This document shows, piece by piece, positions 1 through 25,562 of a stretch of DNA of 64,000 bases (the first letter of the stretch is position 1; every line of letters begins with the position of its first letter). The notes beneath the pieces were generated by a model. It searched no databases. It worked only from the letters and a program-made list of their open reading frames with translations, and was not told the DNA's origin. Location of the stretch: NCBI GenBank assembly GCA_008632985.1, contig QPGO01000009.1:124001-188000 (forward strand). The letters are read 5' to 3'. Both the position numbers and the translations under genes were made by a program. This DNA is from Psammoneis japonica. Taxonomy: Eukaryota.

Positions 1-61
1 TCTCAATGACAGGGTCAATCGGATCCTTGACTCAGACTGTCACGCTGCAAACCTCAACAAT

Positions 62-2657
62 GTGACCGCAGCAGCTGCTCATCTAACTCCTGAAGAGCAG
101 AAGCAGCTGAACTTCCTCTTAAAAAGATTTGAAAACCTTTTCGATGGTTCTCCAGGCAAATGGACCGGGAAACCGGTGGATTTAAAGTTGAAATCGGGCG
201 TGAGTCCGCATCATGCCAAACCATTTCCCGTGCCACAAGCCTTGGAGGCGACTGCTCGTAAGGAGGTTGAAAGACTGTGCAAGTTGAAAGTCTTGAGAAA
301 AATGGGTTGTTCTGAATGGGCGGCTCCAACCTTTGTTCAACCCAAGAAAAATGGCAGAGTTCGGTTCTCGTCCGACTTTCGAGAGCCAAACAAGAGGTTG
401 GTTCGTGCTCCGTTTCCTCTGCCCAACATTCAGGATGTGCTGCAGAAGCTTGAAGGCTTCATGTGTGCAACGTCCCTGGATTTGAACATGGGATGCCATC
501 ATGTCGAATTGACGCCGCGCGCACGTCGCTTGTGCACGATCGTCATGCCTTGGGGCAAATGTGAGTGCTGTAGACTCCCGATGGGAATCTGTGGAGCTCC
601 AGATGTTTTCCAAGAGCACATGAGTGAGCTCATGGCAGGTCTGGAGTTCGTCAGAACTTGTGTTGACGATGTGTTGTGTCTTGCAAAAAGTGATTTTCAA
701 GACCACCTCAAGAAGCTTGAAACGGTGTTCTTGCACCTGGAACAAGCCGGATTGAAGGTCAACGCCGAGAAGTCCTTTTTCGCCAAACCCGAAGTAGACT
801 GTCTGGGCTTTCATGTCACCCGCAAGGGCATCAGCCCGATTCCAAAAAAAGCAGAAGCGATTCACGCGATCGCAACTCCCAAAACTCGCAAGGAATTGCG
901 ACGCTTTGTCGGCATGATCAACTGCTGTCGAGACATGTGGCCTCGACGATCTCATGTTTTAGCTCCCTTAGCCAAACTCACTTCTACCCAAGTAAAGTGG
1001 CAATGGACCAAAACAGAACAAAAAGCCTTCGAAAACATGAAGCGCATCATCTCCAAAGATGTGCTGTTGTCACACCCGAATTTTAACATGCCCTTTGAGA
1101 CATGTGCCGATGCTAGCAAATCTCAATTGGGGGCGGTTGTTACTCAGAAAAACCGACCAATTGCCTTCTACAGCCGCAAGCTGAATGGAGCGCAGACGCG
1201 TTGTGCTACAACGGAAAAAGAGCTGTTGTCCACAGTGGAGACGTTAAAAGAGTTCCGAAATGTGCTGTTTGGCCAACAGATAAACATGTGCACGGATCAC
1301 AAAAATCTCACACACAAAAATTTCACAACGGACAGAGTCATGCGTTGGCGTCTAATGATAGAAGAATGCAGTCCCGAAATGATGTACCTTGAGGGCAAGG
1401 CAAATGTTGTCGCAGACGCGATTAGCCGACTTACTGTGAAGAAAATAGGAAACCCTCAGCACAGAAGAGCTAGCTGAAAAGGTCCTGCCAAAATCCTACG
1501 ACAATGTCTTTCCGTTAAATTACAAAGTTCTTGATTCTGAACAAAAACGGGATAAAGACATTCTCTCCCAATTGTCAAATAAGACGTTTCATACGAAGAC
1601 TTTTCGTGGAGGCGAGCGAGACCGGTTGCTCACATGTCATAAGGATAAAATTGTCGTCCCGAGGACGTTACAAAAGGCAGTGATAGATTGGTGTCATACA
1701 TGCCTTCTTCACCCTGGCATAAATCGAACAGAAGAAACAATCTCACAACACCTATGGTGGTCCACCTTACGTGAAGACATACGAAAATACGTGTCGAGAT
1801 GTGAGACGTGCCAAAAATTCAAAAAGAAACACAAGAAATGTGGACATTTACCTCCCAAGTGCGCAGAATCCGCACCATGGGAACGACTGTGTGTGGACCT
1901 TGTTGGGCCATACAAAACACGTCGTAAGGGAAAGAAGAAACCCCTGGTCCTGAAATGTTTGGCTGTGATCGATCCAGCAACCGGATGGTTTGAAGTTGTG
2001 GAAATCCCAAACGAGGAGTCCACAGCTGCAGCTGGGCTGTTAGAACGAACATGGCCAAGCAGATGTCCTTGGCCATCGTTGATCACACATGACCGTGGAA
2101 GTGAGTTCATCGGACACCAATTTAGAGAAATGGCGCAAGATGATTGTGGCATTGAAGTCAAGCCTGTGGCTGCACGAAATCCACAAGCAAGTGCAGTTGT
2201 TGAACGCATGCATCAAGCACTGGGGAACATGCTCCGCACATTTGATTTGCAACATGCACCTCCAGACACTGAGGATCCTTTCGCTGGAATGCTGTCAGCA
2301 GTGGCATTTGCGGCACGTTCTGCGCATCACACCACTGCGCAAGCTGCGCCAGGACAACCAGTCTTCAATAGAGACATGATGTTCAACGTCCAACATGTCG
2401 CGGACTGGAAATTGGTCCAGCAGCGAAAACAAGAAATCACAAACAAAAATGACGCTCGAGAGAATGCTCGACGTGCTCCTTGCACGCACAGAGCAGGAGA
2501 AAAGACACTGCTTGAGAAAGACTTGCAAAAATTAGAACAGCCCCGTGTTGGACCGCATGCAATGACAACGGCGCACACCAATGGCACAGCACAGATCAAA
2601 CGCGGTGACGTCATTGACGCTGTCAACATTCGTCGAACAATGCCGTTTGACGACTGA
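62..2657 (+). pseudogene. Gypsy pol of copy A, inactivated
   Basis: ORFs 62-1477 and 1572-2657 are split by an 8-nt deletion near 1448 (AACCTGTG present in copy B). The RT YxDD motif reads CVDD (659-670). Confidence 0.9.
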
Positions 2658-2672
2658 CTCCAATGTGCAATT

Positions 2673-2683
2673 GGGGAGGCGAA
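2673..2683 (+). promoter_or_regulatory. Polypurine tract of Gypsy copy A
   Basis: GGGGAGGCGAA immediately before the LTR-initial TG. The same tract lies on the minus strand at about 3180-3190 for copy B. Confidence 0.8.
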
Positions 2684-3062
2684 TGCAATGTGCGTTGTCA
2701 TGCATGTGTTGTGTGTGTGTGTCCATGCATTGAATGAAAGTGCGCTTCAATCGCACGTCAATCGTGGGTTCGTACGAAGTGCAGATCAGTCACACAGAAG
2801 CAATTGGATGTCAAGAATCGCAAATGCGATCGTACGATGATGTTGACATCTCATGTGTCAATGTCAATCGCATCCGGACAATCTGTCGTCACGACCACAT
2901 TCTCCGAAAGGCCTTTTGTCTGCAGGAGCAGTGCAAAAGGTTTAGGCTGTTGAGAGCCCGTTCGGAGAAACCCAAAATGATTGCGCAGAAACAATTCTCA
3001 CAATTTTCACTTTTTGAACTTCACTCTGCTTTCGTTTGCACTCGTTCTTCGAGCATGGCGCA
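2684..3062 (+). repeat. 3' LTR of Gypsy copy A (379 bp)
   Basis: Starts TGCAATGTGC, ends GCATGGCGCA. Same length as, and alignable to, the reverse complement of 7598-7976. Confidence 0.9.
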
Positions 3063-3179
3063 CTTCTGTGTGATTGATCTGTGCTTCGCACGAACCCACG
3101 ATTGACGCATGATTGAAATGTGCTTTTGTTCAATGTGCAGATGTGCACATGTGGTGCGCACATGACAATGCACATTGCA
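3061..3179 (-). repeat. Truncated 3' LTR of Gypsy copy B
   Basis: Minus strand reads TGCAATGTGCATTGTCATG..., matching the LTR start, and stops where copy A's LTR ends. Confidence 0.85.
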
Positions 3180-3205
3180 TTCGCCTCCCCAATTGCACAT
3201 TAGAG

Positions 3206-6200
3206 TCAGTCGTCAAACGGTGTTGTTCGACGAACATTGACAGTGTCAACAACGTTGCCGCGTTTGATCTGCACTGTGCCATTGGCATGTGCCGTTGTTG
3301 TTGCATGCGGTCCAACATGGGGCTGTTCTAATTTTTGCGAGTCTTTCTCGAGCAGCATCTTTTCTCCTGCTCTGCACGTGTGAGGAGCACGTCGAGCATT
3401 CTCTCGAGCGTTGTTTTTATTTGTGATTTCTTGTTTTCGCTGCTGGACCAATTTCCAGTCCGCGACATGTTGGACGTTGAATGTCATGTCTCCATTGAAG
3501 ACTGGTTGTCCTGGCGCAGCTTGCGCAGCGGCATGACACGCAGAACGTGCTGCAAACGCTGCTGCTGACAGCATTCCAGCGAAAGGTTCCTCAGCATCTA
3601 GAGGTGCATGTTGCAAATCAAATGTGCGGAGCATGTTCCCCAGCACTTGATGCACGCGTTCAACAATTGCGTTTGCTTGTGGATTTCGCGCAGTTGTGGG
3701 CTTGACTTTAATGCCACAATCATCTTGCACCATTTCTCCAAATTGGTGTCCGATGAACTCACTTCCACGGTCACATGCAATTGACGATGGCCAAGGACAT
3801 CTGCTTGGCCATGTTCGTTCTAATGGTCCAGCTGCAGTTGTGGACTCCTCATTTGGGATTTCCACAACTTCAAACCATCCGGTTGCTGGATCGACCACAG
3901 CTGAACATTTCAGGACTGGGGGTTTTTTCTTTCCCTTACGACGCATTTTGCATGGCCCAATGAGGTCCACACACAGTCATTCCCATGGTGCGGATTCTGC
4001 GCACTCAGGAGGTAAATGTCCACATTTCTTGTGTTTCTTTTTGAATTTTTGGCACGTCTCACATCTCGACACGTATTTTCGTATGTCTTCACGTAAGGTG
4101 GACCACCGTGGGTGTTGTGAGATTGTTTCTTCTGTTCGATTCATGCCAGGGTGAAGAAGGCATGCATGACACCAACCCATCACTGCCTTTTGTAACGTCC
4201 TCGGGACGACAATTTTATCCTTGTGACATGTGAGCAACCGGTCTCGCTCGCCTCCACGAAAAGTCTTCGTATGAAACGTCTCATTTGACAATTGGGAGAG
4301 AATGTCTTTATCCCGTTTTTGTTCATGATCAAGAACTTTGTAATTTAACGGAAAGACATTGTCGCAGGATTTTGGCAGGACCTTTTCAGCCAGCTCTTCT
4401 GTGCTGAGGGTTTCCACAGGTTCTATTTTCTTCACAGCAAGTCGGCTAATCGCATCTGCGACAACACTTGCCTTGCCCTCAAGGCATGTTATTTCGGGAC
4501 TGCATTCTTCCATCATTAGACGCCAATGCATGACTCTGTCCGTTGTGAAATTTTTGTGTGTGAGATTTTTGTGATCCGCACATGTGTTTGTCTGTTGGCC
4601 AAACAGCACATTTCGGAACTCTTTTAACGTCTCCACTGTGGACAACAGCTCTTTTTCCGTTGTGGCATGACGCGTCTGCGCTCCATTCAGCTTGCGGCTG
4701 TAGAAGGCAATTGGTCGGTTTTTCTGAGCAACAACCGCCCCCAATTGAGATTTGCTGGCATCGGCACATGTCTCAAAGGGTGTGTTAAAATTCGGGTGTG
4801 ACAACAGCACATCTTTGGAGATGATGCGCTTCACATTTTCGAAGGCTTTTTGTTCTGTTTCGGTCCATTGCCACTTTGCTTGGGCAGAAGTGAGTTTGGC
4901 CAAGGGAGCCAAAACATGAGATCGTCGAGGCCACATGTCTCGACAGTGGTTGATCATGCCGACAAAGCGCCGCAATTCCTTGCGAGTTTCAGGAGTTGCG
5001 ATCGCGTGAATCGCTTCTACTTTTTTTGGAATCGGACTGATGCCCTTGCGGGTGATGTGAAAGCCCAGACAGTCTGCTTCGGGTTCAGCGAAAAAGGACT
5101 TCTCGGCGTTGACCTTCAATCCGGCTTGTTCTAGGCGCAAGAACGCCGTTTCAAGCTTCTTGAGGTGGTCTTGAAAATCACCTTTTGCAAGACACAACAC
5201 ATCGTCAATGCAAGTTCTGACGAACTCCAGACCTGCCATGAGCTCACTCATGTGCTCTTGGAAAACATCTGGAGCTCCACAGATTCCCATCGGGAGTCTG
5301 CAGCACTCACATTTGCCCCCAGGCATGACAATTGTGCACAAGCAACGTGCACGCGGCGTCAATTCGACATGACAGCATCCCATGTTTAAATCTAGGGACA
5401 TTGCACACATGAAGCCTTCAAGCTTCTGCAGCATGTCCTGAACATTGGGCAGAGGAAACGGAGTGCGAATTAACCTCTCACTCAGCTCTCGAAAGTCGGA
5501 CAAGAACCAAACTCTGCCATTTTTCTTGGGTTGAATGAAGGTTGGAGCCGCCCATTCAGAACAATTTGTTTTTCTTGAGACTTTCAACTTGCATGGTCTT
5601 TCAACCTCCTTACGAGCAGTCGCCTCCAAGGCTTGTGGTGCGGGAAATGGTTTGGCATGACACGGACTCATGCCCGATTTTAACTTTGAATCCACCGGTT
5701 TCCCGCTCCATTTGCCCAGAGAGCCATCGAAAAGGTTTTCAAATCTTTTTAAGAGGAAGTTCAGCTGCTTCTGCTCTTCAGGAGTTAGATGAGCAGCCGC
5801 TGCGGTCACATTGTTGAGGTTTGCAGCGTGACAGTCTGAGTCAAGGATCCGATTGACCCTGTCATTAAGACCAATCACTGCATGAGATTCCTCAACATGA
5901 TCGGCAATCAACTTAAAAACATCGGCATCGAAGAGTGTGCCAACATTCTTCACAGGAGCAGTTGCATCTTCCCATTTAATTTCTTCATTCGAGAAGTCCA
6001 ATGTCATCCCAAGACTTGACATTAAGTCGCGTCCCATGATCACATCATAACGACTCGAAGAAGAAGGGGAGTTGTCAACATGTGCCGTTGTTTCAATCAT
6101 CTCATGTTTGTCAAATTCGGGTGAGGAGAATTGGATCTTACATCGACTGTCAGTCGTGAAGAGCCCTCCTTTGGTTTCCCAGAGTTTGGTGGCGGATGCT

Positions 6201-6406
6201 TTTGTTCTGAGTTTCCGCGTGAATTTGCGCAAAATTATGGTTGACGATGTTCCGCCATCGAGGAGAACGCGTAGAGGCTTGTTTTTCGCCTTGCCTGATG
6301 AAGCATTCACATGGGCGACGACTGCTGGACTAGCATGAATTACTTTGGCCCTTTTTCTGGGCTTCCCAATGTCCAGCAGAGCGCAAGACTCCTCTTGCGG
6401 TGCAAG
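3206..6406 (-). pseudogene. Gypsy pol of copy B (aspartic protease, RT, RNase H, integrase)
   Basis: LLDGGTSS protease motif, CIDD RT motif, DASKSQLG, integrase core. Premature TGA at 3977-3979 where copy A has CGA (1884-1886). Confidence 0.9.
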
Positions 6407-7597
6407 TCATTCCTCGGAATCACTGCGCGTCATTTTTTCAAACTGATGATTTTCCTCGTCAAGGGTGTCAGAATCATGATCTTTGCTCTTGTGTTTTTTG
6501 TCATTGTTCGAAGAACTCGCTTTGAGCAATTTTTGAACTGCTTGGATCGCCACAGCATTCAATTCTTCTTTGCGAGCGGCGTCATCGTTATCGCGACGAG
6601 ACCACGTGCGATTGCCATTTGAACGGCGCCGTTTCGGGTCGGGTTCATAGTTCCCACGGCATTCTTTCGCAAGTCTTTTGATCGACCAGCACTTGTCCGT
6701 GTTGTGAGTGGATTTCTCGCACAAAATGCACCACTTCTCGGACTGAGATTTTTCGGCACCATGTTGGTGACCATTTTTGGAACCACGTTGGGAACCACTC
6801 TTGGCTTTTGATGCAGTGCCGCCACTGCCATCAGCCTTGGCATGAATGCCATCAAATGTGTCTTCTGCGACCTCCAGGCGCTCCAAGAACTCAGCCAGCT
6901 CGTCACAGGTGTGTTTCAAAATTTCGAAACCCTGGACGGTCGACTGACGCTGCCACTTTCGAGGTGCAAGGTTGAAGAGGATGTCCTTGAGCTCGTCGTC
7001 CTCGATCTTCTGTTCCTTCCCAAAGGGAGGACAGAACTTGAGATCTTCGTTGACTTCCTGGACCCAAGCAGCAATTTTGCGTGCTTTCATGGACTCCGGC
7101 TTCTTGAGATCACGACGCAAATGACGTTTCTGCACCGAAAGTGCGTTCTTGGGAAACACATGCCTCGTGAGATGTTGCAGGCATTTCTCGAAGCTTCCTT
7201 CCGCAGATTCGTCTTCAAGGTTCGCTGCCGCATTCTCGAAAGCATGTGGGGCGTCTCCTTGGAGTGACATGCGCATGAGACGAAACTTGTCAGATTGCTT
7301 CCTGACATTCTGGCCCACTGGAAGTTGATCATAGCTCTTGAGAAATTCGATGAACTTGGGGACACCTTGTTTCTTGTAGTGCTCAACATTGATGGTGCAG
7401 GTGCGGCTGTCCTTCTTCTCGGGATGAAAACGTTGCTCCATCTTGAGGTGCTGGCTCGGTTTGAGGCTCTTCGGCTCGGAGTTCGATTCCAGCGGTTGAG
7501 GGACGATTTTCTCCTGCCTCAACGAAGTTTTGGCGTTGGTTGCATGAGGTGAAAGCTTCATCTTGAACTTGTTGCCTTCTGTGGTGTGTGTGCACAA
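6407..7597 (-). CDS. Gypsy Gag-like protein with zinc knuckle (probably mutated; start uncertain)
   Basis: 396-codon ORF directly after the 5' LTR, containing CILCEKSTHNTDKC (CX2CX4HX4C). Confidence 0.8.
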   Translation of the reverse strand: MCTHTTEGNKFKMKLSPHATNAKTSLRQEKIVPQPLESNSEPKSLKPSQHLKMEQRFHPEKKDSRTCTINVEHYKKQGVPKFIEFLKSYDQLPVGQNVRKQSDKFRLMRMSLQGDAPHAFENAAANLEDESAEGSFEKCLQHLTRHVFPKNALSVQKRHLRRDLKKPESMKARKIAAWVQEVNEDLKFCPPFGKEQKIEDDELKDILFNLAPRKWQRQSTVQGFEILKHTCDELAEFLERLEVAEDTFDGIHAKADGSGGTASKAKSGSQRGSKNGHQHGAEKSQSEKWCILCEKSTHNTDKCWSIKRLAKECRGNYEPDPKRRRSNGNRTWSRRDNDDAARKEELNAVAIQAVQKLLKASSSNNDKKHKSKDHDSDTLDEENHQFEKMTRSDSEE

Positions 7598-7976
7598 TGC
7601 ACTGTGCTCGAAGAACGAGTGTAAACGAAAGTAGAATGAAGTTCAAAAGGTGAAAATTATGAGAATTATTTCTGCGCAATCATTTTGGGTTCCTCCGAAC
7701 GGGTTCTCAACAGCCTAAACCTTTTGCACTGCTCTTACAGACAAAAGGCCTTTTGGAGAATGTGATCGTGACAACAGATTGTCCGGATGCGATTGACATT
7801 GACACACAAGATGTCAACATCATCGTACGATCGCATTTGCGATTCTCGACATCCGGTCACTTCTGTGTGATTGATCTGCACTTCGTACGAACCCACGATT
7901 GACGTGCGATTGAAACATGCTTTTATTTGACACACAGATGTGCACACACAGTACGTGCATGACAACGCACATTGCA
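7598..7976 (-). repeat. 5' LTR of Gypsy copy B (379 bp)
   Basis: Begins TGCAATGTGC, ends GCACAGTGCA (imperfect terminal inverted repeat), contains AATAAA. Confidence 0.9.
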
Positions 7977-10900
7977 CAGGCACGCCTGGGCTGGTTGTTG
8001 TGCTCATCTCCCTTTGCCTGCATGCAGTGCCAAAACTCAACCTGGACAAAGCTTTCTCTGTTTGCTTGCTTTCTCACCAGCTTTTGTGCAGAGTGTCTGC
8101 CCACCACCCACAGACTTCGCTGAGTGAGTCAAACTTCAACACTTCAGCGGCCTCTTTTGGTTTTCATTGCTGGCCAGCTGTCATTGTCATGTTTTTGTCC
8201 ACATGCTCAGCTGACCACAGCAGATCCCAGAGGTGCTCTGTGCGCCCTTTGTCTTGCTGTGGACTCAAGCGCAAGGCCAGCATCAAGTGGTTGCTTTTTG
8301 CAAAATGAAAGCCTGTTGTTTTGCATGTTGTGTGCGACACAAGCAGCAGCTCCTTGCTGTCATTGTTGGATCTGGTGCAGGATCTGGTGCAGAGACACTT
8401 CTTGATGTTGCAGTCTGCATGTCATCACACAACAAAGAAGCCACTCAACACAAGGTCTCTGCCGCCATTGAAAAAAGGGTGGAGATGAGGCAGCTTGTGA
8501 AGGGGTTGTTTTTGAAGATCCAAGAGGCAGCCACAAGCTGCGCTGCACAGCCTTTGACAATGGCAACAAATGCCAGTTTGATCTTGCTGAAAAAGAAAAG
8601 CCCAGTTGCTTGCGGTGGTTGAGCATGAAGGGAAAGAAAAGTTTTTCATTGATCATTCCAGCACAAGCCTTGCAAAGAGGCAGAAAGCAAGCAGATTGAG
8701 AACACCCAAGAGGAGCAGAGAGCACTTTTGGCTCTGGAGCCAAATCCCATGCCAAGCTCAGATGGCAAAATGACCAGGGGGTGCGCTGACGAGTTGCTTT
8801 GCATGCTCTCAAGAAAGAATTGCTGGCAGCTGTTCTGAAGCTTGAAGCAAGCTTTGCATGCTCCAAAAAAAGAGCCCTGAACATCCAGGAGTCCAGCAGC
8901 ACATGAGACAAAAAATTGGGAGCCCCCTTGTCAAAACTCTCTTTCATGCCCTGATTTGGGCCTGATCAACATCCTTTGGTGCAATGATCTTGTGTCAGCA
9001 GCAGTGCTGCAACTTTGGTTGATGTTAAAAATGTGGGCAATGTGGCAAAAACAAAGCAGTGCTTTTGTCCAGCATGAAACTTCTCTCTCTCTTTCTTTCT
9101 CCTCTCTCTCCAACCACAAAGTGGTGTGAGCACAGAGTGAAAGTGTGGGGTGTTTGTGAGCAAATGAGCACAAAGTGTGCCAGCGCTGTGCCTGTGAATC
9201 TGGCAGTGGCTCACCTGCCCATTTCTGAGCACACTGCAACCCATGCTGTGCTCTGTCCCAGCATGGCACTCAGTGTGACTTGTTCCTCAATCAGCCAAGA
9301 GCATTGGAGCTTTGCACCCACCACATCATTTGTGCTTTGTGAGAGCTGAGTTGCATTTGTCACTTGCCCAAGACAACCTGCACTTCCAAAGCCAGGCTGC
9401 AGGTCAAGGGTCATGTGTTTTGAGCCAGCATTGCTCCCAGCACACTCTGTGGGCTCGGCACTCTCTTTGAGTTTCTTCAGCCCAGCACCAAGGGCTCAGC
9501 AATCTGACTTTCTCTCACACTCAGTGTGTGGAGTTAATTGGGCATGACAAGCTTGTGTGAGCTCCATCTTTGTTGTCATTCCACCTGCAAAGCAGGGCAC
9601 TGATCTTTGCTCCTGCAGCACAAGATCTGCTAAATCTGTTGAGGGCCCAACTGCAGTCTTGCAGCTCTCCAACAAAGTCCCTCACTTGACCACACATGGC
9701 ACCACCAGTTGCTCAATTGTCAACCCCAGTGCTGGTTCAGAGTTGGCACCCAAGGTTGCTGCATGCCCCAAGATGTGTTTTTGCACCAAGACTGCACTGC
9801 TGCTGTTGCAAAACACCCCGCACTGTGGCAAAGCAACAAGGCCATTTTGGGTCATTGAGATTTTGTCTGTGTGGGCTGCAAGAGCCTCTCCAAACTCTCC
9901 CTCTTCTGGGCTTGTTGCCACTGGTGTGTTGACAGCTTCAGCTGATCATGCAGCTCACTTGACAATTTCAAATTGTCACGTTGTGTGGGAGTTTAAAAAT
10001 GCCACCCAGAGGTGCCATTGTTTGTGTGTGGGCACACAAAGAAATGGCAAGCACCCTGTGTGTCACTCTTGCAACACATCAGACAGATGATGAGAGTTGC
10101 AGCTGTGATGAGATGCGCCAAGTGCAGACCACAGATTGCTTTGCAATGATTGTTGCCAGAATGGCAGTTGCAGGAAGGAAGCTTTTGAGCACTGCTGGTC
10201 AGGTTGAGTCCTGTTTTTTGGTGCCAGACATGGAGATGTGAGCCAGTGCTTGGTTGAGCCTGTGTCCCATGCGATGTTGCTCTTCTGCAACTCATCAGGT
10301 CCAAGCTTGTTGCTTGTGGCATGGACAAGGCACACAAGCTGTGGGTTGGCAGCAGAGTTTTTTTGGGGCTTGTTGCACAAGAGTTGAAGAGAAATGCTCT
10401 GTGAGGTTGATGGGTTGATGATCCAGGCAAGTTCATCATTGCAGCTCATCAGCTCTGAGTGCCTTGTCACAGTGTTGGCAGTGCTCAAAAGCCTTTGTCA
10501 TGGAATGTCTGACCAGCAAGAGAGTGGCCACCTGCCCGCCAACTTGCAAACCACATTTTTGATGTGGGCGAAGCAAACTGTGCTGATGGTCAATTGGTTT
10601 GATGTTCCAGGTGAGTTTGCTGATGTGGCTCATCAGCTCCAACATTGTTGTGGCACAAGCAATGCCCACAGGCATTTTTTCTTTGAATGTCTGGTGGCCA
10701 GGAAGGTGTCATCATTTGATTTGCCAAAGCAGGTGAAGCCACTGTTTTCTGCAAATCAAGGAGAAAGGCGCCATTGGGCTGACTGCTTGATGATCCAGGC
10801 GACCTCAATTGCACAGTTTTGTGAACTTGAGATCTTGACAGTGTGGGCATGCTGCTGGTTGTGGCGGTGAAAACTTCTTGCTGGGGTGCAGGCCATGAAT

Positions 10901-13900
10901 CAACTGACATGCAGCTGTGGGTGACTGTCTTCAGGAGTGTTGTTTTGAGTCTCACAATGATGCCCAGATGAGCTGGTCATGCACTCAAGCTGGCCATCTG
11001 GAGCAAACAGTGGTTGCTGGTGGCTGAGAGCAAGGTCTTAGCCACCCACTGCATTGTGAGCTGGATTCATGTGTCAGCTTGTTGTGATGCCAAAGGAGCA
11101 CCCCTTGAAAGAGAAATGCGCTGACAAGCAACTTCAGACTGTTGTGTGCACCAATGGAAAGCACCCAAATTCAATGATGCAAGTTGGAGGTGGAGCAGTG
11201 CATTGTGTCACCATGTCAGCACACACCATTCCAAGGGACCAAAAAAAAGCCAGCATCATCAAAACCTGCCAAAGAAGTGGAGCTCACGGACAGAGAATGG
11301 TGACAGAAATGATGTCCCTGCAGCGTCACTCTGGTGATCTCTCTCATTTCACTTGGAGCCTCCCAGATTGTGGACACAGGATGCAAATCAGAAGTCTGAG
11401 TCATGCTGAGAAAAAAAATGACCAAGAGCATGGGCCCTCACCAAGCAGCCCAGCAGGAGAATGATGGCAAATGGGGCTCTGTGACATGTTCCAGCCATTG
11501 CAACAAGGTCACCAACATGACCCATGGAAGCAAGCAAAGAGTTTTCTGGCTTCTTTGCAGCTCACATGCTTGCTGGAGGATTGTGGCAGGTGCACATTCT
11601 CCAACTGCAAGTGCAAATGGCAAAAAAAATTGATTTTGCCACAAGGGGAGGACTGCCACAGAACTCTTTCTGCAAGGCCCTGCAACACTCCATTTTTCCA
11701 CATCCTGGCTGTGATTTGTCTGTTTTTTCTTGTCATTCTGTTGTGAATGGTGAAAGTGTGAGTTCATTCTGACTTTGCCTTTTCCTTCATGGCAGCACAG
11801 CACTGTCAAGTGGATGATCTTCAGGGAAAGAATTTGAGCCTTGTGGCACCTGGTTTCCAGCACTTCAAATTGCAGTTTTTTGTTTCAAGCAAGCAATCAA
11901 CATGTGAATTTAGATGGAGAGATTCTGAGTGTAGATTTGTGGACCTTCACCCAGAGTTCCTGGCACAATTTCAGGAGTGACGTGGTGCATGAAATTGCGC
12001 CAACCACAGCTTTTCACAAACTGCTGGTCCCAAAATCAACAATGATTCGTTCTTGAAATCCAACAAAATCTACAGAGAAAAGCACACCTCATCATGATCC
12101 AAGCTGTTCAAGTTCCACCACTGCCAGCCCTCCATTGTCACACTGTCACATTTGAGCACATCCACCATTTTGATCTCCATGGAAGACTTTGCGCCGCACA
12201 AAATCTCCATGATCAACGTGACCACAGGCATCCACTCCTCCCTTTTTCAATTGAGTTGACATGCCTGCTTGCACACAGACATCTTTTTGTTCCACACTTG
12301 GCTGTCTGAGTCAACAGAGTGACTCATTGTCCAACAGCTGTTTTGTGTGGGTGTTTTGTCTTTTTGCAACTTACGATGGCAAAGGCACCCACATCCAATG
12401 CCAGGCCACTTGTGTTTGGAAACAAGGCAAAAAAGCTGAGTGGAGCAAACAAAAGTGCAGCTGGTTGCCTTGATGCCATTTGCATTGAGTGACTCCAGTT
12501 GCAGTCTTTGTTGCCAGTGAAGCATCGCCAAGCATCAAATGCAACAGAACAAGAAAAAGAGTCAAAACTGCCTTTGTGACAATCAACAACAGGAGTGCAA
12601 ACATCTTCAATCCCACACTGGTTGCTCACTCAAGCTTTCCACAGCATTGTTTGAATTGTTGCCCAGCAATGGGAGCTGATGTCCATGAGGTTTGTGAGTT
12701 GTGGCAATGGTCCCGGAGGGCCACAACACAGCGCACACATGCAGGCTTGGGGTTTTGGTTTTTTTTTGGGGGGGGGGGGGGGGCTTGTTTTGTCTGGAGA
12801 CATGGGTTCTTGTGAGTGTGTCACACACAGCAGTGCGTGGTGCACCGTCCAGGCCCCAGTGGAGGGGTGAGTGGCAAGTGCTTCTGGCAGTGGCAAGCAG
12901 CACTTCACTGCATGCTGCAGTCTGCAGTGGCAGAGACAAGAGACAACAAGATGTGACACATGATGGTGGAAGACATGCCAGCCACAGATGAGTCATCCAG
13001 TGATGAGCCACCACTTCCACCTGCAGCTCCTCCTGCATCCAAGTGCAGTCTTCCCTGCTGGCAGGATGCTCAAGCAACTGAGCCTGGTCAGTTCTGATGG
13101 ACAAGATGAGACTCTCTCTCTCTCTCTCTTTCTTGCATGCAATCACAGGTCAGTCCAGGTGCCAAGCAGCTGAAGTGTTTTAAGTTCAATTGACCATCAA
13201 TTCTCAGTGCTTTCCAAATCTGGGCCCCCACTTTTTTCATCTGGGGGACTCCCCCTTTTGTTGAAAAATTCTCCCCCCAAAACCCCAAGCCCACATGCAT
13301 GCAACAGCGCAATCATTGACATCCTTGGCTTGGTGTGCAGTCAAGGTGCACGCAAATTGTCACAGACAAAGTTCTGTGTGCTGCGCACATTGAATTGCAG
13401 CAACAGACAAAGATGTGGTTGGACAGGAGCAGTGCAGATGCACTGTGGCCATTGATCTGCTGTGTGTCAACTCCAGATGCTGCACAAAATGAACAGCAGA
13501 AATGTCCAGCAATGTTGGTGGTGTGACCAGAGGGTTGGTCATTGTTGACACATCATTTGTTTGCACACACAGTTTGACAACAAAGTTTGAAGACATTTGC
13601 CATGCCATTTTGTTTCAGCATTGGTGGTGGGGGGGAGTGGGAGTTGTGGGGGGGTCAATCACAGTGGCACTGCTGTTGTTTGCATCTTTGCACTGAGTTT
13701 TTGCCATGAGCATTGTGAGTGGGTCCAGCTGAAACTGGCTGGCAGATGACAAAAAGTTGACAAGAACCATGATCCATGGTTGCTGGTGCAGCAGCACCTC
13801 TTTGCAAAATGCAGTGCCGGGGCAGGATGACAGCTCTTGCCATGTGTCCTCTTCACCCACAACAGATGCCGCCAGCACCTCTTTGAGTTTTTTTTCATGT

Positions 13901-14555
13901 GCTTGCACATCATGGACATGTGAGTCATTTAGAAGTGACAACAACATGCTCACAACACGAGTCAATGCATTGACTCATTTCAATTGCCAATGACAGGCAA
14001 TTGAGGTGAGCACATTTGAGCATGCACGAGCAATTTGTGTCAGAACTTTGCGGCTTGCTGGCTGTTCTCATCTGTTCCCAACCTTGCAGCATGGATTGCA
14101 AGCACAACTCTGATGCCATTGCTGTGCTGCCTTGGCGCAGAAGCCAAAAAGTGAGCTTGAGACGCACCTTCATGGTGAGTTGTGAGTGCAGGTTCATGAC
14201 ATTGCCAACAGTCATCAGCACTCATTCACTGCAGCATGTTTTCTGTCTGCCCTCCAAGAGCTGTGTCACACCCCAATGTTCCAACATGCTCCTTTGAATG
14301 GCTGGCCTCATGTGCACCCATCAAAAGAGAACAACAGTTGGAAGCCATGCTGCCCAACACTGCATCAACTGCTTTGTCAAGAGACCTGCAGCTGACGCCA
14401 TCCAACTCTGCCAACAAATGATGGCTGCCCTCATTGAGCGAAGCTCTCCTTCACATGCCCAGCCTTGTTCACTTCCAGCATTTGGCCCATCTCTTCTCCT
14501 GTTGCACAAAGCTTGCCCCCCCATGTTTCTTGTTGGCCCCGCACCACATTGAATG
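7977..14555. repeat. Degenerate TpA/CpG-depleted repeat-derived DNA, family unassigned
   Basis: Almost no TA or CG dinucleotides. (CT)n tracts at ~9080 and ~13110. 13990-14400 resembles modules at ~22.1 kb and ~52.3 kb. Confidence 0.5.
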
Positions 14556-14738
14556 AATGCTGATGTGGTGTTCGTGGCCTGTGCCACAGCACTCTTGCCC
14601 TTCTGTCATTGCCACACTTGTGTCTGCACTGCATCTCCCATGCAATTGGACGCTGTTGTCACTGTGACCCAAACACACGTCCACAGTTGTTCACCCACAC
14701 ACTGACCAAACACAGACCACTCCACTGGGATTCACTTG
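14556..14738 (-). repeat. 3' LTR of the Copia element (ends approximate)
   Basis: Direct repeat of 20692-20876 (AATGCTGATGTGGTGTT...CCACTCCACTGGGATT). Confidence 0.8.
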
Positions 14739-17700
14739 GTCCCTGCAAATTGGCAATGCTTTGCCAGCTCATCTGCTCAAAACATCCTCTCACAGAGAGG
14801 CAAAACACAAACCCAATTGGCCACCAGCCAGTCTGGCTTGGGAGGTCACAAGGCATGAACATGAGTTGCAAGCCCTGGACCTTGGCTGCAAGGGAACCAT
14901 CATTGCCAAAAGACAAATGAGCACAACTGCCAACACTTTTCACCTGTCACAAGCTCTGTCAATGGATCTGCCAAATTCGTCTCCGCATCTTCCTTTCCAA
15001 CTCTCACAATTCCAGCTGCAACTGCCTCTCTCACTGTGTGACAGTTGACTGCATTGTGCTTCTTGTGCAATGCAGATTCTGGGACACTGATGTTCTTCAC
15101 CACACCGTGGTTGTTGCAAAACACATTCAACAATCATGTCCTCACAAGTGCACATCACGACCAACTCACTGCCAAATGCAGAAGACTCAACTGCATTCTG
15201 CCACTTGCTGAACCACACAATTGGAAAATTGTTCACAAAGACAACTGCGCACTTTCTTGAGGGGCTGTGCAACCAATCCTTGGAATTTTCTGCAACTTTG
15301 CAGGCCATCTTGGTCATGAAAAACTTTTTGAGTGCTGCATCAAAAGTGCCCTCTTCACCACAGAGCAGCGCTTGCGTCATGCTGGCTCCTCTCCTTTGTT
15401 TGTGGACGTGGCCATTGATCTGTCAGCATTCTTTCTTAAACTCACAGGACAAGCAGCTGGGAATGCGAGATGCCATTGAAGTGGGCTCCTCGTCTGATGC
15501 CACACGAAGAATCATTTTGCAGGTTTTCATTGCATGGGCAGTGCCAGAGTGTGGCCTGCATGCAATGACATTTCCAGCATGATTTGCATCAACAAAAGCA
15601 TGCACAGTCGCCGGGTTTCCACACAGCTCAGGCACCTCAGGTGGCAACTCTTCTTCACAGAATGCAGTCCAATCTGCCACACTGTTGAACACAGACTCAT
15701 CAATCTCAGGACTCTTGGGATCAAATCCAACCCCACCTCTGCCCGGATGCTTTTTCACACATGCAAATGCATGGCACAAGGCTTCCATGTGACCTTTCCT
15801 TGGATTCGCCTGATGTTGAGAAAGCAAAGACACTTCAAACAAAATGACAACGTGGCCCAACTCAATCATCCATCTTGCAATTCCAACAAGCTGCAAATGC
15901 CGGGACATGGAGTCGGGGCCCAATTTGTCCGTCACACCCAACTCTGGCTTGTGCTTTGCTGGGAATGGATCCTTGCTTCACACTGTTCTTCAAGACTGCA
16001 CCATCCCTGTCCTCACTTGACAGATCTTCCACTGTCTTGATTGTGTTCTTGATGCGGTCCTCAGGTGAACTGGCCCAAATCATGCGACTGTCTTGTGTCT
16101 GAATCTTCTCTGTCATTGCTCCCAAACAAGTCTCAGGTTCTCCTTCACTCCCAGGCTTGATCTTGCAATGCTCGGCAACAGACTTGACAACTGACTTGCC
16201 TTGATGCAACATCATCAGTGCATCATCCACACACACCAATGGCATCTCACAGTGCTTGTGCCCGTCTTTGCAAACTGCTGCTCACAAGGCTCAAATGCAC
16301 ATTGGGATCCGCTCATGTCGGTTTGAAACCCACATCTCACAAAGCAGAAGAAAATGTCAATTGCCATGAAAACCCTGCACTTTTCAATCCGTGAAGTGCT
16401 CTCACTGCAACCAATGCACACCCTTTGAACTTGTTGTCACACTCAGCTCCACCTTTGAACCATGTCTTCTCTGCACACGGTGCACTCAAACAAGCACTCT
16501 CCAAGTCGATTGCAGCAACATCCACATTGTTCAAGGCTGCTGGCACAAAAGCAATTCGTGCACTGTCCCTCAAGACAATGCTTGAGTGCGTGATTGAATC
16601 CAGTGCTTTTGCAGTGTGACCTCCAGCTGCAAACCTGGCCTTGCAGGTGAAATCCATCTTGACGTGAAACACCACATGGCATTGCATCTCTTGACATCCA
16701 CACAGCTTCTGACTCTTTCCTTCATGGACTTGTTGTGGAGTTTTGCCATTGTGCTTTTCCCATGCCACCTTTGCCTCAGTCATCTCCTTGTCAATGGCTC
16801 TGGCCCAATGGTCTGTCCCTGTCCCATGATCAATGTGCAGTGCTTCATCAACACTCTTTGGCAACTTGACCCCAAACTTGTGAGTGATTCACCAGCACTT
16901 TGACTTGACCTTTGACACAATGTGGCTTCATTTCCTTGGCACATGGGGTGCCCACCAAGCAAACACTGGTTCATTGGCAATTCTGTTGGCCACTGCATGC
17001 TCTGCCACTTCAACAGGATTAGAGTCCTTGACGTCTTTCAATTTGACCCAGTCAGAGCTGCCGTCCTTCCATGCCATCAGTGACTCCCAACCTTTTGTCA
17101 TCTTCTTCTTCTTGCTTTGACCTCCTGCAGTCTCAACTGTGCCATCATCCTTCAAAATTGCTTCCCACATCATCCTGTGGTCTTGAACTTCATGCAAAAC
17201 AGAGCACTGATGACCCTCATTGTTGACCTGAGCGGGCATGTTCTCAGCTGTGACATCTGTGTGCTCGATTTTGCACTCTCTTGCATCAAACAATGGGCTC
17301 TGATGTCTCCATCCCATTGGTTTGCCATCATGACCTCTTGCTCTCATTGCAACTGCACCATGCCTTTCTCCTTCTGTTCCGACATCCACCAGGATTAGCT
17401 CCATGCCAAGGCACTGGTCCATGGCTTCCTCGTCATCATCATCAGGGCACTCTTGTCATCTGTCAGCATGTCACCATGTTCTTTGTCATCTGGCACAACA
17501 CCTCCTTCACACTGCACATTGCACAATCATTGAAACAGAAGAATGCTGGGACTGCCTTGTCTCCTTCAAGCACAAAGTTCATGTCATCCAATCATTTTTT
17601 CAGAGCTTCACTGAGCTCATTGATCCATTTTCTTTTGTCCAACTCAACACAGTCTGCCTGCACAACTTGCTCCATGGAGGTTTCAGACACCAACTTGCTG

Positions 17701-20672: not shown

Positions 20673-20684
20673 GGCTCTGACAAA
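20673..20684 (-). promoter_or_regulatory. Probable degenerate initiator-Met tRNA primer-binding site
   Basis: Minus strand TGTCAGAGCC next to the 5' LTR matches the core of the canonical TGGTATCAGAGCC with one TA->TG change. Confidence 0.5.
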
Positions 20685-20691
20685 GCAAACA

Positions 20692-20876
20692 AATGCTGAT
20701 GTGGTGTTGCGGCCTGTGCTGCAACACTCTTGCCCTTCTGTTGTTGCCACACTTGTGTCTGCACTGCAATTCCCATGCAATTAGATGTTGTCATCATTGT
20801 GACCCAAATGTGTGTCCACAGTCATTCACCCACACACTGACCAAATGCAGGCCACTCCACTGGGATTTGCTTGACA
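20692..20876 (-). repeat. 5' LTR of the Copia element (ends approximate)
   Basis: Direct repeat of 14556-14738; begins TGTCAAG on the minus strand. Confidence 0.8.
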
Positions 20877-20879
20877 TGT

Positions 20880-25500: not shown

Positions 25501-25562
25501 CAATCAGTGTGTTGAGTCTGCTCAGAAATTCATGATGCATGTCCCATGAGAACTTGAGTGCC

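What the first reader, a model, noticed from the sequence alone, without database searches (positions are those of the whole stretch)
1..7976. Candidate new genome-defence system: TpA->TpG/CpA (A-to-G) hypermutation of transposons, the reverse of RIP
Seen: the sister Gypsy copies differ reciprocally at codons where one has TG and the other CA. CAT(497)/TGT(5372) in G-x-x-H; TGC(923)/CAC(4946) in N-x-x-RDMW; TGT(1202)/CAT(4667) in R-x-ATTEKE; TAC-AAA-ACA(1911)/TGC-AAA-ATG(3944-3952); ATG-ATG-TAC/ATA-ACA-TGC; TGT-GTT-GAC-GAT/TGC-ATT-GAC-GAT. Known: several of these positions are conserved Tyr in Ty3/Gypsy Pol (GYYH, YxDD, RY..TEKE), so the ancestor had TA, not CG. Inference: a process converts the A of TpA to G on either strand, independently in each copy. 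Fungal RIP is CpA->TpA and methyl-CpG decay starts from CG, so neither explains this. I know of no described equivalent but cannot search the literature.
Basis: partly seen in the sequence, partly recalled or inferred. Interest (0 to 1): 0.93.

Follow-up and report, generated by a model that had tools for sequence, protein, structure and literature searches.

The report
TpA-erasing hypermutation of diatom transposons
Two sister retrotransposon copies, and almost all the non-gene DNA around them, have had their TA dinucleotides turned into TG or CA by a mutation process that spares genes and ribosomal DNA; I found this signature reported only once before, in an unrelated alga.

Summary
Gypsy copies A (1-3062, +) and B (3063-7976, -) differ at 225 of 2801 aligned bases. 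Of these, 221 are transitions, and 64 dinucleotide sites read TG in one copy and CA in the other (chance: about 3).

Sixty intact outgroup Pol proteins polarise these sites to a TA ancestor, never CG: 36 TA, 0 CG and 16 unclear, of 52. Conserved Tyr is lost at 42 of 47 copy-sites (40 to Cys or His), while Arg is kept at 56 of 62.

B's own two LTRs differ the same way, so the process acts on DNA after integration.

The process is not confined to these copies. About 40.8 kb of surrounding non-genic DNA, including a decayed Copia element and old dispersed repeats, has TpA at 0.03 and CpG at 0.16 of expectation. Two host genes and the rDNA with its spacers are normal, and the boundaries are sharp. 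The host looks like a diatom.

The signature is not unprecedented. A 2026 preprint measured TpA-only T:A>C:G hypermutation of integrated viruses in Bigelowiella natans.

The enzyme, the base actually hit, and a defence role are all unproven. My verdict is a real, striking new member of a very recently described kind.

The parts
1..3062 (+). Gypsy copy A. Its 5' part is cut off by the window start. It holds pol (RT, RNase H, integrase) and a full 3' LTR, and it sits inside B's 3' LTR in the opposite orientation, so it is the younger copy.
   Evidence: Pfam RVT_1, RT_RNaseH, Integrase_H2C2 and rve. Inverted-repeat arms. LTR alignment. A keeps TA at 26 sites where B has lost it, against 12 the other way.
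2684..3062 (+). 3' LTR of copy A (379 nt).
   Evidence: 89% complementary to 7598-7976; alignment.
3063..7976 (-). Gypsy copy B: 5' LTR, gag, pol and a truncated 3' LTR.
3063..3180 (-). First ~118 nt of B's 3' LTR, cut by the insertion of A.
   Evidence: Against B's own 5' LTR: 118 aligned bases, 23 differences, all transitions; 9 TG/CA sites, 3 TA/x, 2 CG/x.
7598..7976 (-). 5' LTR of copy B.
3206..7597 (-). B's gag (6407-7597) and pol (3206-6406) reading frames. They stay open but are Tyr-depleted.
   Evidence: Tyr is 0.5% in pol and 0.76% in gag, against 3.87% in 120 outgroups; Cys is 3.86% against 1.33%.
7977..29500 (.). TA-free, CpG-poor 'sea', block 1.
   Evidence: 0-7 TA per kb in the 1-kb bins from 8001 to 29000. 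For the three sea blocks pooled: TA 80 observed against 2590 expected, CG at 0.159, TG at 1.86 and CA at 1.87 of expectation.
14556..20873 (-). Decayed Copia-type LTR retrotransposon inside the sea, with LTRs at 14556-14738 and 20692-20873.
   Evidence: LTRs 85% alike. tblastn is colinear with RVT_2-bearing polyproteins. TA at 0.036 and CG at 0.21 of expectation. The ORF at 17595-18713 has 0 Tyr in 373 residues.
20986..22215 (.). Old dispersed repeat. Relatives lie at 14075-14294, 43659-44257, 46254-46951 and 51151-53141.
   Evidence: 65-80% identity. Pairs differ by TG/CA doubles: 28 sites in 470 nt and 13 in 274 nt.
29600..32400 (-). Host gene island 1 (ORF 29919-31910, 663 aa). Its composition is normal, so it is spared.
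   Evidence: All 7 of the 120 listed homologues that carry an organism name are from diatoms.
33000..39300 (.). TA-free sea, block 2.
39400..42000 (-). Host gene island 2 (ORF 39738-41594). It is spared, and its upstream edge is sharp.
   Evidence: 17 TA in 41800-42000 and 0 TA in 42000-42200.
42001..55000 (.). TA-free sea, block 3.
55400..64000 (+). rDNA unit with its spacers (18S 57864-59665, 5.8S 59910-60064, 28S 60427-63828). It is spared.
   Evidence: Rfam matches. In the spacers alone, TA is at 0.97 and CG at 0.91 of expectation.

Best explanation
A DNA-level, regionally targeted hypermutation process converts T:A to C:G specifically at TpA. Each TA becomes TG or CA, depending on which strand is hit. 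It acts on retrotransposons after they integrate, and on the rest of the non-genic, repeat-rich DNA. Genes with their flanks, and the rDNA with its spacers, are left untouched. A slower CpG>TpG/CpA decay runs in the same compartment, so both self-complementary YpR dinucleotides drain into TG/CA.

In a simple model, TpA sites in the young Gypsy copies are lost roughly ten times faster than CpG sites, and a couple of hundred times faster than other sites. The process makes no stop codons; it removes TAA and TAG. Elements are instead disabled by mass missense: Tyr>Cys/His (including the Tyr of Y-x-DD), Ile>Val/Thr/Met, and Leu>Pro/Ser.

Shown here: the polarity, the TpA specificity, action after integration, action on both strands, accumulation with age, and the sparing of genes and rDNA.

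Inferred: that an enzyme does it. My split is about 45% for an adenine deaminase acting on DNA (A>I, read as G), about 25% for a TpA-preferring thymine modification such as 5hmU/5fU that mispairs with G, and the rest for something else. Also inferred: that targeting goes through a heterochromatin-like state, and that the effect amounts to genome defence.
For: 1. Spectrum. 221 of 225 A/B differences are transitions. 199 of the 225 lie in TA-, CG- or TG/CA-state dinucleotides.

2. Polarity.
- Of the 52 TG/CA sites that map to pol columns, 36 fit a TA ancestor, 0 fit CG and 16 are unclear.
- At columns where at least 80% of 60 outgroups have Tyr, the 47 copy-sites read 32 Cys, 8 His, 5 Tyr and 2 Phe. 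Conserved Arg is kept at 56 of 62.
- Among 140 unambiguous single-base changes at 915 conserved copy-sites, 77 are A>G (65 of them after T) and 35 are T>C (33 of them before A). All other types together make 28.

3. After integration. B's two LTRs were identical when B integrated. They now differ at 23 of 118 bases, all transitions: 9 TG/CA sites, 3 TA/x and 2 CG/x. The Copia LTRs differ at 26 of 182 bases, 25 of them transitions, with 8 TG/CA sites.

4. Dependence on age. The nested, younger copy A keeps TA at 26 sites lost in B, against 12 the other way. For CG the figures are 20 against 13. Across elements, TA/CG relative to expectation run 0.20/0.89 in Gypsy, 0.036/0.21 in Copia and 0.031/0.16 in the sea.

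5. Targeting. Host gene islands have TA at 0.62 and CG at 1.0 of expectation. rDNA spacers have TA at 0.97 and CG at 0.91. Edges are sharp at 200-bp resolution.

6. The sea holds old transposons and repeats that carry the same TG/CA doubles.

7. Not private to the assembly. Contigs built from public run X1 hold 51% of the sampled words of 1-8000. One 4273-nt contig matches 7983-12000 with 2 differences. The family's summed depth is 3500-25000, against about 69 for the unique flank.

8. Precedent. TpA-only A>G/T>C mutations at about 1000 times the background rate were observed directly in integrated viral DNA of B. natans.
Against: - Only 64 kb could be seen, because no genome is held. 'Genes spared' therefore rests on two genes and one rDNA unit.
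- 16 of the 52 coding TG/CA sites could not be polarised. At 4 of them (2167, 2267, 2302, 2641) more outgroups fit the CG ancestor than the TA ancestor.
- Most of the sea cannot be shown to be transposon-derived. Of 120 sea ORFs, 118 had no Pfam hit at E<=0.01, and the 274-aa ORF at 33833-34654 had no homologue. 'Targets all non-genic DNA' and 'targets selfish DNA' therefore cannot be told apart.
- In the 38 best-supported family variants within 1-8000 (classed), only 7 rows show TA in the family where the window has TG/CA. Eight rows (4 sites) show the opposite TG/CA state in the family. Two rows show CG in the family. Four rows show the window with CG and the family with TG/CA. Seventeen are other. 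So abundant subfamilies carry converted sites too, and CpG decay contributes.
- A and B share ancestry, so copy-site counts are not independent events.
- A simple one-rate model does not fit the TA/TA: TA/x: TG/CA counts of 22: 38: 64. Rate differences between sites are needed, for example with flanking context.
- Nothing here identifies an enzyme or a modified base.
Confidence: 0.8

Rival explanations
1. An untargeted, genome-wide mutation bias against TpA (and CpG). Under this reading, genes and rDNA keep TA only because selection or concerted evolution restores it.
For: The whole non-genic background is TA-free, not only recognisable transposons. 118 of 120 sea ORFs have no Pfam hit. The sea at 8-12 kb is single-copy by depth.
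Against: Non-coding rDNA spacers have TA at 0.97 and CG at 0.91 of expectation. The upstream flank of gene 2 holds 28 TA in 41600-42000, then 0 in the next 200 bp. CpG at 1.0 of expectation in the gene islands leaves no sign of decay even at silent sites. The edges are too sharp for selection alone.
Confidence: 0.1
2. Editing before integration: adenine-to-inosine editing of the element's RNA (ADAR-like, helped by the inverted A/B pair forming double-stranded RNA), or deamination of the cDNA, fixed when the element is copied back into DNA.
For: There is a sense-strand bias. Across 24 conserved Tyr columns the A/B states are CC 12, discordant 6, HH 1. Sites where only one copy changed give TG 24 against CA 14. 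Polarised changes at TpA give A>G 65 against T>C 33. The preprint's Discussion notes that ADAR favours a 5' U.
Against: B's own LTRs, identical at integration, differ at 23 of 118 bases in the same way. The older copy B is more mutated than the nested copy A. Both strands are hit. Old repeats and the Copia LTRs show the same doubles. From recall, not tested: ADARs are animal enzymes.
Confidence: 0.05
3. Classical methyl-CpG decay: the ancestor was CG, giving TG in one copy and CA in the other.
For: TG/CA reciprocity is the textbook CpG-decay pattern. 33 CG-versus-TG|CA sites exist. The sea has CpG at 0.16 of expectation. Two family-variant rows show CG in the family where the window has TG/CA.
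Against: 0 of 52 coding TG/CA sites polarise to CG, and 36 polarise to TA. Arg is kept at 56 of 62 conserved copy-sites, while Tyr is lost at 42 of 47. 122 CpGs are intact in both copies, and the pair's CpG stands at 0.89 of expectation. CpG decay is therefore real here, but it is a slower second process.
Confidence: 0.02
4. A sequencing or assembly artefact, for example a modified base at TpA in silent chromatin that is systematically miscalled as G or C.
For: The platform of the assembly and of run X1 is not on record. X1 may be the very sample the window was assembled from.
Against: k-mer contigs of X1 reproduce the TA-free flank with 2 differences in about 4 kb at depth ~69, and the run's longest contig is 315 kb. 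Other copies in the same run do show TA at sites such as 400, 1918, 3479 and 7248. The older copy is more changed than the younger one, which a miscall artefact does not predict.
Confidence: 0.03

Closest known systems
TpA-specific hypermutation of integrated viral DNA in Bigelowiella natans (Mettrop et al., bioRxiv 10.64898/2026.01.13.699255; abstract, Results and Discussion read; supplements closed)
   Same: Almost only A>G and T>C changes. Only at TpA, giving TpG or CpA according to strand. [quoted passage not shown] Leaves TpA-depleted, CpA+TpG-enriched clusters enriched in reverse-transcriptase and DDE domains. The enzyme is unknown (an ADAT2-like candidate is proposed).
   Different: There the rate was measured directly in mutation-accumulation lines and was active only in some lines; here it is inferred from sequence. 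There the targets still hold many TpA (Rho 0.45 in the giant-virus insert), and only 124 small depleted clusters were found genome-wide. Here about 40.8 kb of a 64-kb window is at 0.03 of expectation. The host is a rhizarian there and a diatom-like stramenopile here. Here it is coupled with CpG loss and shows a sense-strand bias in the Gypsy copies. The preprint's per-site context tables (supplements) could not be read, so flanking preferences cannot be compared.
Repeat-induced point mutation (RIP) of ascomycete fungi
   Same: Transition-only hypermutation of DNA that riddles transposon copies, with a dinucleotide preference. It leaves compositionally aberrant repeat-rich compartments next to normal genes. 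From recall: the rDNA array is exempt in Neurospora, as the rDNA unit is here.
   Different: RIP is C:G>T:A, mostly CpA>TpA (abstract of PMC2621366, seen in the listing). That raises TpA and creates stop codons. Here the change is the exact reverse: TpA is erased and TAA/TAG disappear. Dependence on duplication, premeiotic timing and a DNA-methyltransferase-like enzyme could not be tested.
5-methylcytosine-driven CpG decay in methylated transposons
   Same: A self-complementary YpR dinucleotide decays into TG/CA in silenced DNA, while genes stay as islands. This process runs here too: the sea has CpG at 0.16 of expectation.
   Different: It starts from CG, not TA. In the Gypsy pair it is about ten times slower than the TpA loss.
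5-hydroxymethyluracil marking of transposons in dinoflagellates (PMC11572971; passages read)
   Same: A base modification in another member of the same eukaryotic supergroup. It is enriched on transposons and silences them, and earlier work cited there found that it preferentially replaces thymine in TA and TC.
   Different: No mutational consequence is reported in the passages read. Nothing shows that this host has 5hmU. TC is not affected here.

Membership tests
TpA-specific T:A>C:G hypermutation (B. natans type) | [quoted passage not shown] | tested here: met
   221 of 225 differences are transitions. 112 of 140 polarised changes are A>G or T>C.
TpA-specific T:A>C:G hypermutation (B. natans type) | Mutated A is preceded by T, and mutated T is followed by A. 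| tested here: met
   65 of 77 A>G changes follow T, and 33 of 35 T>C changes precede A. 36 of 52 TG/CA sites are TA-ancestral and none CG-ancestral.
TpA-specific T:A>C:G hypermutation (B. natans type) | Confined to regions of foreign or selfish DNA, with the rest of the genome ordinary. | tested here: inconclusive
   Within 64 kb, Gypsy, Copia, old repeats and all other non-genic DNA are hit, while 2 genes and the rDNA are spared. The whole genome is not available.
TpA-specific T:A>C:G hypermutation (B. natans type) | Long-term footprint: TpA depletion together with CpA+TpG enrichment in clusters. | tested here: met
   In the sea, TA is at 0.031, TG at 1.86 and CA at 1.87 of expectation.
TpA-specific T:A>C:G hypermutation (B. 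natans type) | De novo rate about 1000-fold raised, and active only in some lines. | not testable with these tools
   This needs mutation-accumulation lines or pedigrees. A model on the A/B pair gives roughly 270 times the rate of other sites (my estimate).
Fungal RIP | C:G>T:A transitions, mostly CpA>TpA, raising TpA. | tested here: not met
   The direction is the opposite. G>A plus C>T make 10 of 140 polarised changes, and TpA is erased.
Fungal RIP | Triggered by sequence duplication before meiosis, and dependent on RID/Dim-2. | not testable with these tools
   No genome or life-cycle data. The repeated rDNA is unhit, and the single-copy sea (depth ~69) is fully converted.
Methyl-CpG decay | The ancestral dinucleotide is CG. 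| tested here: not met
   Not met for the TG/CA sites (0 of 52). Met for a separate set of 33 CG/x sites.
ADAR-type RNA hyperediting fixed by retrotransposition | Changes arise before integration and only as sense-strand A>G. | tested here: not met
   Divergence between the LTRs of one element is 23 of 118 bases. T>C at TpA is common (33). A partial sense-strand bias does exist.
APOBEC-type cDNA deamination | Sense-strand G>A hypermutation. | tested here: not met
   G>A makes 9 of 140 polarised changes.
Ty3/Gypsy LTR retrotransposon (the substrate) | Flanking LTRs, and gag-PR-RT-RNase H-IN domain order. | tested here: met
   Pfam RVT_1, RT_RNaseH, Integrase_H2C2 and rve in that order. LTRs. 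1020 homologues.

The most novel reading that the evidence does not exclude
Diatoms (and, with B. natans, perhaps the whole stramenopile-alveolate-rhizarian supergroup) may possess a chromatin-guided DNA editing enzyme. It could be an adenine deaminase working on DNA, or a TpA-specific thymine modifier. It would work as a reverse-direction counterpart of RIP: erasing every TpA from silenced DNA, killing transposons by mass Tyr>Cys/His missense without making stop codons, and in this species rewriting most of the genome. The sense-strand bias seen in two oppositely oriented copies would then mean that the enzyme prefers the strand displaced during transcription.
Probability: 0.4. Interest if true: 0.92.

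Novelty: new member of a known kind. Interest (0 to 1): 0.8.

Why it matters
RIP has long been the only well-described case of a cell deliberately mutating its own repeats, and it is confined to fungi. The same TpA-erasing signature has now been measured in a chlorarachniophyte and is written at saturation across a diatom-like genome. Together these suggest that a second, chemically opposite editing defence exists in major algal lineages.

In this genome the footprint is extreme (80 TA where about 2590 are expected) and the age series is clean: rDNA and genes, then young Gypsy, then old Copia, then the sea. That should make the responsible enzyme and any modified base much easier to find.

A natural enzyme that edits A:T to G:C in double-stranded chromosomal DNA at a defined dinucleotide would also interest base-editing work.

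There are practical consequences as well. In such genomes dead transposons keep long open frames, because only TGA stops remain. They will be mis-annotated as genes, and Tyr-poor, Cys/His-rich 'proteins' of this kind are already in public databases.

Tried and rejected
- Dinoflagellate host. My first guess, because 5hmU prefers TA in dinoflagellates. A spliced-leader motif search found 0 matches. The host gene's 7 organism-named homologues, out of 120 listed, are all diatoms, and the atlas's nearest cluster is mostly Bacillariophyta. Rejected.
- Whole genome. None is held, so deaminase or TET/JBP candidates, other transposon families and introns could not be examined.
- Earlier scan notes. Nothing on this genome. 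The word searches returned only phage cases that have no bearing here.
- RNA evidence. No RNA holder was listed.
- Runs X2 and X3 held next to none of the stretch.
- The family-variant table from the laid contigs shows only 40 of 1169 places, so no family-wide polarised spectrum could be drawn from it.
- Polarising the old Copia ORF with 40 homologues gave too few conserved columns. 0 of 7 Tyr columns keep Tyr, but most substitutions there are not single steps.
- Sea ORFs: 118 of 120 have no Pfam hit. The ORF at 33833-34654 has no homologue. tblastn with 172 Gypsy and Copia proteins found nothing in the sea outside 14879-20273.
- Host ORF 2: the atlas gave no usable hit.
- A 3'-neighbour rule as the cause of the Cys-over-His bias was rejected. 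The bias holds whatever base precedes the Tyr codon.
- Simple repeats and tRNA genes as the nature of the sea were rejected: 7 short tandem arrays and 0 tRNA genes.
- Literature. Six searches found no other report of TpA-directed hypermutation, and none in diatoms. The library lacks most subscription journals.

Full report
**What is there**

The first 7976 bases hold two copies of one Ty3/Gypsy LTR retrotransposon, lying tail to tail.
- Copy A (+ strand, 1-3062) is cut by the window start and ends in a full 379-nt LTR (2684-3062).
- Copy B (- strand, 7976 down to 3063) has a 5' LTR (7598-7976), gag, pol, and only the first ~118 nt of its 3' LTR (3063-3180).

A's LTR abuts B's truncated LTR, so A most likely inserted into B's 3' LTR and is the younger copy.

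**Checking the observation**

A and the reverse complement of B align over 2801 bases with one indel and 225 differences (8.0%). Of these, 221 are transitions.

The dinucleotide states are as follows:

| State (copy A / copy B) | Sites |
|---|---|
| TG in one copy, CA in the other | 64 (128 of the differences) |
| TA versus TG | 24 |
| TA versus CA | 14 |
| TA in both | 22 |
| CG versus TG or CA | 33 |
| CG in both | 122 |
| Differences outside these classes | 26 |

Placing 221 random transitions on copy A gave a mean of 3.1 TG/CA sites, with a maximum of 10 in 2000 trials.

**Polarity**

No close copies exist in the protein collection. It does hold 1020 homologues, the best 120 of which are 47-56% identical, intact-looking Gypsy Pol proteins.
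- Composition. Those 120 average 3.87% Tyr, 1.33% Cys, 2.72% His and 6.29% Arg. A and B have 0.4-0.5% Tyr, 3.86% Cys, 3.3-3.5% His and 6.0-6.9% Arg.
- Conserved Tyr and Arg. I aligned 60 outgroups with the A and B reading frames. At columns where at least 80% of outgroups have Tyr, the 47 copy-sites read 32 Cys, 8 His, 5 Tyr and 2 Phe. Conserved Arg is kept at 56 of 62.
- The TG/CA sites themselves. Of the 64 sites, 52 map to pol columns. At 36 the outgroup residue is the one a TA ancestor encodes, at 0 the one a CG ancestor encodes, and 16 are unclear. At 4 of the unclear sites a few more outgroups fit CG than TA.
- Overall spectrum. Among 140 unambiguous single-base changes at 915 conserved copy-sites, 77 are A>G (65 preceded by T) and 35 are T>C (33 followed by A). 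All other types together make 28.

**When and on what it acts**

The two LTRs of one element are identical when it integrates. B's own LTRs now differ at 23 of 118 bases. All 23 are transitions and all lie in these dinucleotide classes (9 TG/CA, 3 TA/x, 2 CG/x). One site shows all three states: TA in B's 5' LTR, CA in B's 3' LTR, and TG in A's LTR.

So the changes arise in chromosomal DNA after integration, independently in each stretch and on either strand. The nested, younger copy A keeps TA at 26 sites that B has lost, against 12 the other way. For CG the figures are 20 against 13. That is what a process that accumulates with residence time predicts.

I made a rough rate estimate from the A/B pair. 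It assumes as many unseen concordant conversions as the 64 seen discordant ones. On that model about 78% of TA sites are lost per copy, about 11% of CpG sites, and about 0.5% of other sites. That puts TpA loss at roughly 13 times the CpG rate and about 270 times the rate elsewhere. This is my own model on the counts. One rate does not fit the 22: 38: 64 counts well, so sites differ in rate. TG/CA sites are enriched in purine-TA-pyrimidine contexts (34 of 64), and surviving TA is mostly followed by A.

**Strand bias**

At the 24 conserved Tyr columns, the A/B states are Cys/Cys 12, discordant 6, His/His 1, Tyr/Cys 2, Tyr/Tyr 1 and Phe/Phe 1. One further column is covered by B only, and it reads Tyr. 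The bias toward Cys holds whatever base precedes the codon.

Sites where only one copy changed give TG 24 against CA 14. A and B lie in opposite orientations on the chromosome. The preference for sense-strand TA>TG therefore follows the element's own strand, not the replication direction.

This is moderate evidence, because shared ancestry inflates the counts. It could reflect transcription, or an added contribution from before integration.

**The surroundings change the picture**

The process is not special to these copies. I took 40.8 kb of the window as non-genic 'sea': 8001-29500, 33001-39300 and 42001-55000. Values below are observed counts divided by the count expected from base composition.

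| Region | TpA | CpG | TpG | CpA |
|---|---|---|---|---|
| Sea (40.8 kb; 80 TA observed, ~2590 expected) | 0.031 | 0.159 | 1.86 | 1.87 |
| Old Copia element | 0.036 | 0.21 | 2.02 | 1.79 |
| Gypsy pair | 0.20 | 0.89 | 1.40 | 1.45 |
| Two host-gene islands | 0.62 | 1.0 | 1.12 | 1.08 |
| rDNA spacers only | 0.97 | 0.91 | 1.29 | 1.12 |

The TG and CA levels in the sea are about what complete conversion of both TA and CG would give.

The host genes are single-exon ORFs of 663 and 618 aa. The rDNA unit holds 18S, 5.8S and 28S, and even its non-coding spacers are normal.

Edges are sharp. The stretch 41800-42000 holds 17 TA, and 42000-42200 holds none.

Normal CpG and TpA in spacers, promoter flanks and silent sites argues for regional targeting or protection. 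It argues against a uniform mutation bias opposed by selection.

**What the sea is made of**

Part of it is demonstrably old selfish DNA.
- A Copia-type element lies at 14556-20873 (- strand). Its LTRs are 85% alike. It is colinear by tblastn with polyproteins that carry RVT_2. One of its ORFs has 1893 homologues (best E 2.6e-71) and 0 Tyr in 373 residues, while the 40 homologues of 500 residues or more have 2.3-5.5% Tyr.
- A dispersed repeat family at 65-80% identity is present in at least five places.

These old pairs differ in the same way: 28 TG/CA sites in 470 nt, 13 in 274 nt, and 8 in the 182-nt Copia LTRs.

The rest of the sea has no detectable protein or repeat ancestry. Whether the target is 'selfish DNA' or 'everything that is not a gene' stays open.

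The order rDNA and genes, then young Gypsy, then Copia, then sea reads as an age series. TpA goes first and CpG follows more slowly.

**Independent support and host**

- Public run X1 holds 51% of the sampled words of 1-8000.
- Its contigs cover the unique flank at depth ~69, and one 4273-nt contig differs at only 2 positions.
- Summed depth over the Gypsy is 3500-25000, so the family has on the order of 50-350 copies at 80% likeness or better.
- X1 may be the sample the window was assembled from, so this is not fully independent.
- The 38 best-supported family variants within 1-8000 are mixed: 7 rows show TA in the family where the window has TG/CA; 4 sites (8 rows) show the opposite TG/CA state; 2 rows show CG in the family; 4 rows show the window with CG; 17 are other.
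- The host gene at 29919-31910 has 255 homologues. All 7 of the 120 listed that carry an organism name are pennate diatoms. The atlas's nearest cluster is mostly Bacillariophyta. My impression that the 18S looks stramenopile is recall only.

**Mechanism**

- Shown: DNA-level change, after integration, TpA-specific T:A>C:G, on both strands, age-dependent, region-restricted, and coexisting with slower CpG decay.
- Inferred: an enzyme causes it.

Because TA is self-complementary, the sequence cannot tell whether A or T is the base hit. The two concrete routes are these:
- Adenine deamination to inosine in DNA, as the B. natans authors propose with an ADAT2-like candidate.
- A TpA-preferring thymine modification that mispairs with G. 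In dinoflagellates, 5hmU made by TET/JBP enzymes marks and silences transposons and is reported to prefer TA and TC (passages of PMC11572971). That such a modification is mutagenic is my inference.

The consequence for an element is mass missense: Tyr>Cys/His, including the Tyr of Y-x-DD in both copies, and Ile, Leu and Val codons that contain or border TA. TAA and TAG stops are lost. Reading frames therefore stay open while the proteins are ruined.

**Comparison with what is known**

- RIP is the reverse change: CpA>TpA, which raises TpA and makes stops (abstract of PMC2621366, seen in the listing). The membership test fails on direction.
- Methyl-CpG decay fails on the ancestor test for these sites, though it is present as a second process.
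- ADAR-type and APOBEC-type editing fail on the LTR test and on the spectrum.
- The closest match is the 2026 preprint on Bigelowiella natans. There, 231 of 302 new mutations fell in two integrated viral regions, and all but one of the 231 were A>G or T>C. All of these A>G and T>C mutations lay at TpA, at about 6e-7 per site per generation (1000 times background). The activity appeared only in some lines, and TpA-poor, CpA+TpG-rich clusters were enriched in reverse-transcriptase and DDE domains.

Four of that system's five defining features could be tested here. Three are met. Regional targeting is met within the window but is inconclusive genome-wide. The de novo rate cannot be tested.

The differences are the host lineage, the targets (LTR retrotransposons and the bulk of non-genic DNA), the saturation (0.03 against 0.45), the coupling to CpG loss, and the sense-strand bias.

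Six literature searches found no other report, and none in diatoms. The library lacks most subscription journals, and the preprint's supplements are closed.

**Verdict**

The polarity inference and the idea of a TpA>TpG/CpA hypermutation that strikes transposons are supported. The claims that it is unprecedented, that A is the base hit, and that it is a dedicated defence are not established.

I rate it a new member of a very recently described kind, in an extreme form, and of high interest. This genome looks like an unusually good place to find the enzyme.

Noticed in passing
window 8000-55000 (for example 17595-18713, 33833-34654, 43388-44161): TAA and TAG have been erased, so only TGA stops remain. 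The non-genic sea is therefore full of long open frames on both strands (120 of at least 110 aa). 118 of them have no Pfam hit. Gene callers would over-predict genes here.
   Followed up: partly
proteins P0237, P0173, P0131, P0141, P0272: Some public Copia-like proteins related to the sea ORF are themselves Tyr-poor (0-1%) and Cys/His-rich. Converted transposon frames from this or similar organisms may already sit in protein databases as predicted proteins. Their DNA could not be fetched.
   Followed up: partly
window 1-7976, both Gypsy copies: TA>TG is favoured over TA>CA on the element's sense strand in both copies, although they lie in opposite orientations. Tyr columns give CC 12 against HH 1. 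TG stands at about 1.5 of expectation on the sense strand, against about 1.2 for CA. This may be a transcription-linked asymmetry.
   Followed up: partly
window 2025, 2196, 2789 and other 'other' differences: 22 of the 26 differences outside the TA/CG classes are also transitions. Several are CAG versus CAA (CTG versus TTG on the other strand), which might reflect a weaker non-CpG cytosine process or off-target activity.
   Followed up: no
window 55740-56094 and 56264-56616; 56094-56214 and 56649-56768: Direct repeats (95% and 86% alike) lie in the spacer upstream of the 18S gene. The change from TA-free sea to normal composition falls at about 55000-55600, roughly 2.3 kb before the 18S.
   Followed up: no
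window 60144-60198: A (CAGTA)n microsatellite of 11 copies lies in ITS2, between the 5.8S and 28S genes.
   Followed up: no
window 39848-40133: A 126-nt tandem repeat (2.3 copies, 92% alike) lies inside host ORF 2. It encodes the repeated Ser/Lys-rich tail of an otherwise unannotated 618-aa protein.
   Followed up: no
window 3062/3063 junction: Copy A appears to be inserted into the 3' LTR of copy B in the opposite orientation. The rest of B's LTR should lie beyond the window start. Nesting within its own family would fit integration targeted at silent chromatin.
   Followed up: partly
window 2684-2800, 3063-3180, 7860-7976 (LTR starts): The first ~120 nt of the LTR must have been very TA-rich originally: about 20 inferred TA sites in 118 nt, if concordant conversions equal the discordant ones. 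That suggests either a TATA-like U3 region or continued TG<->CA turnover after the first conversion.
   Followed up: no
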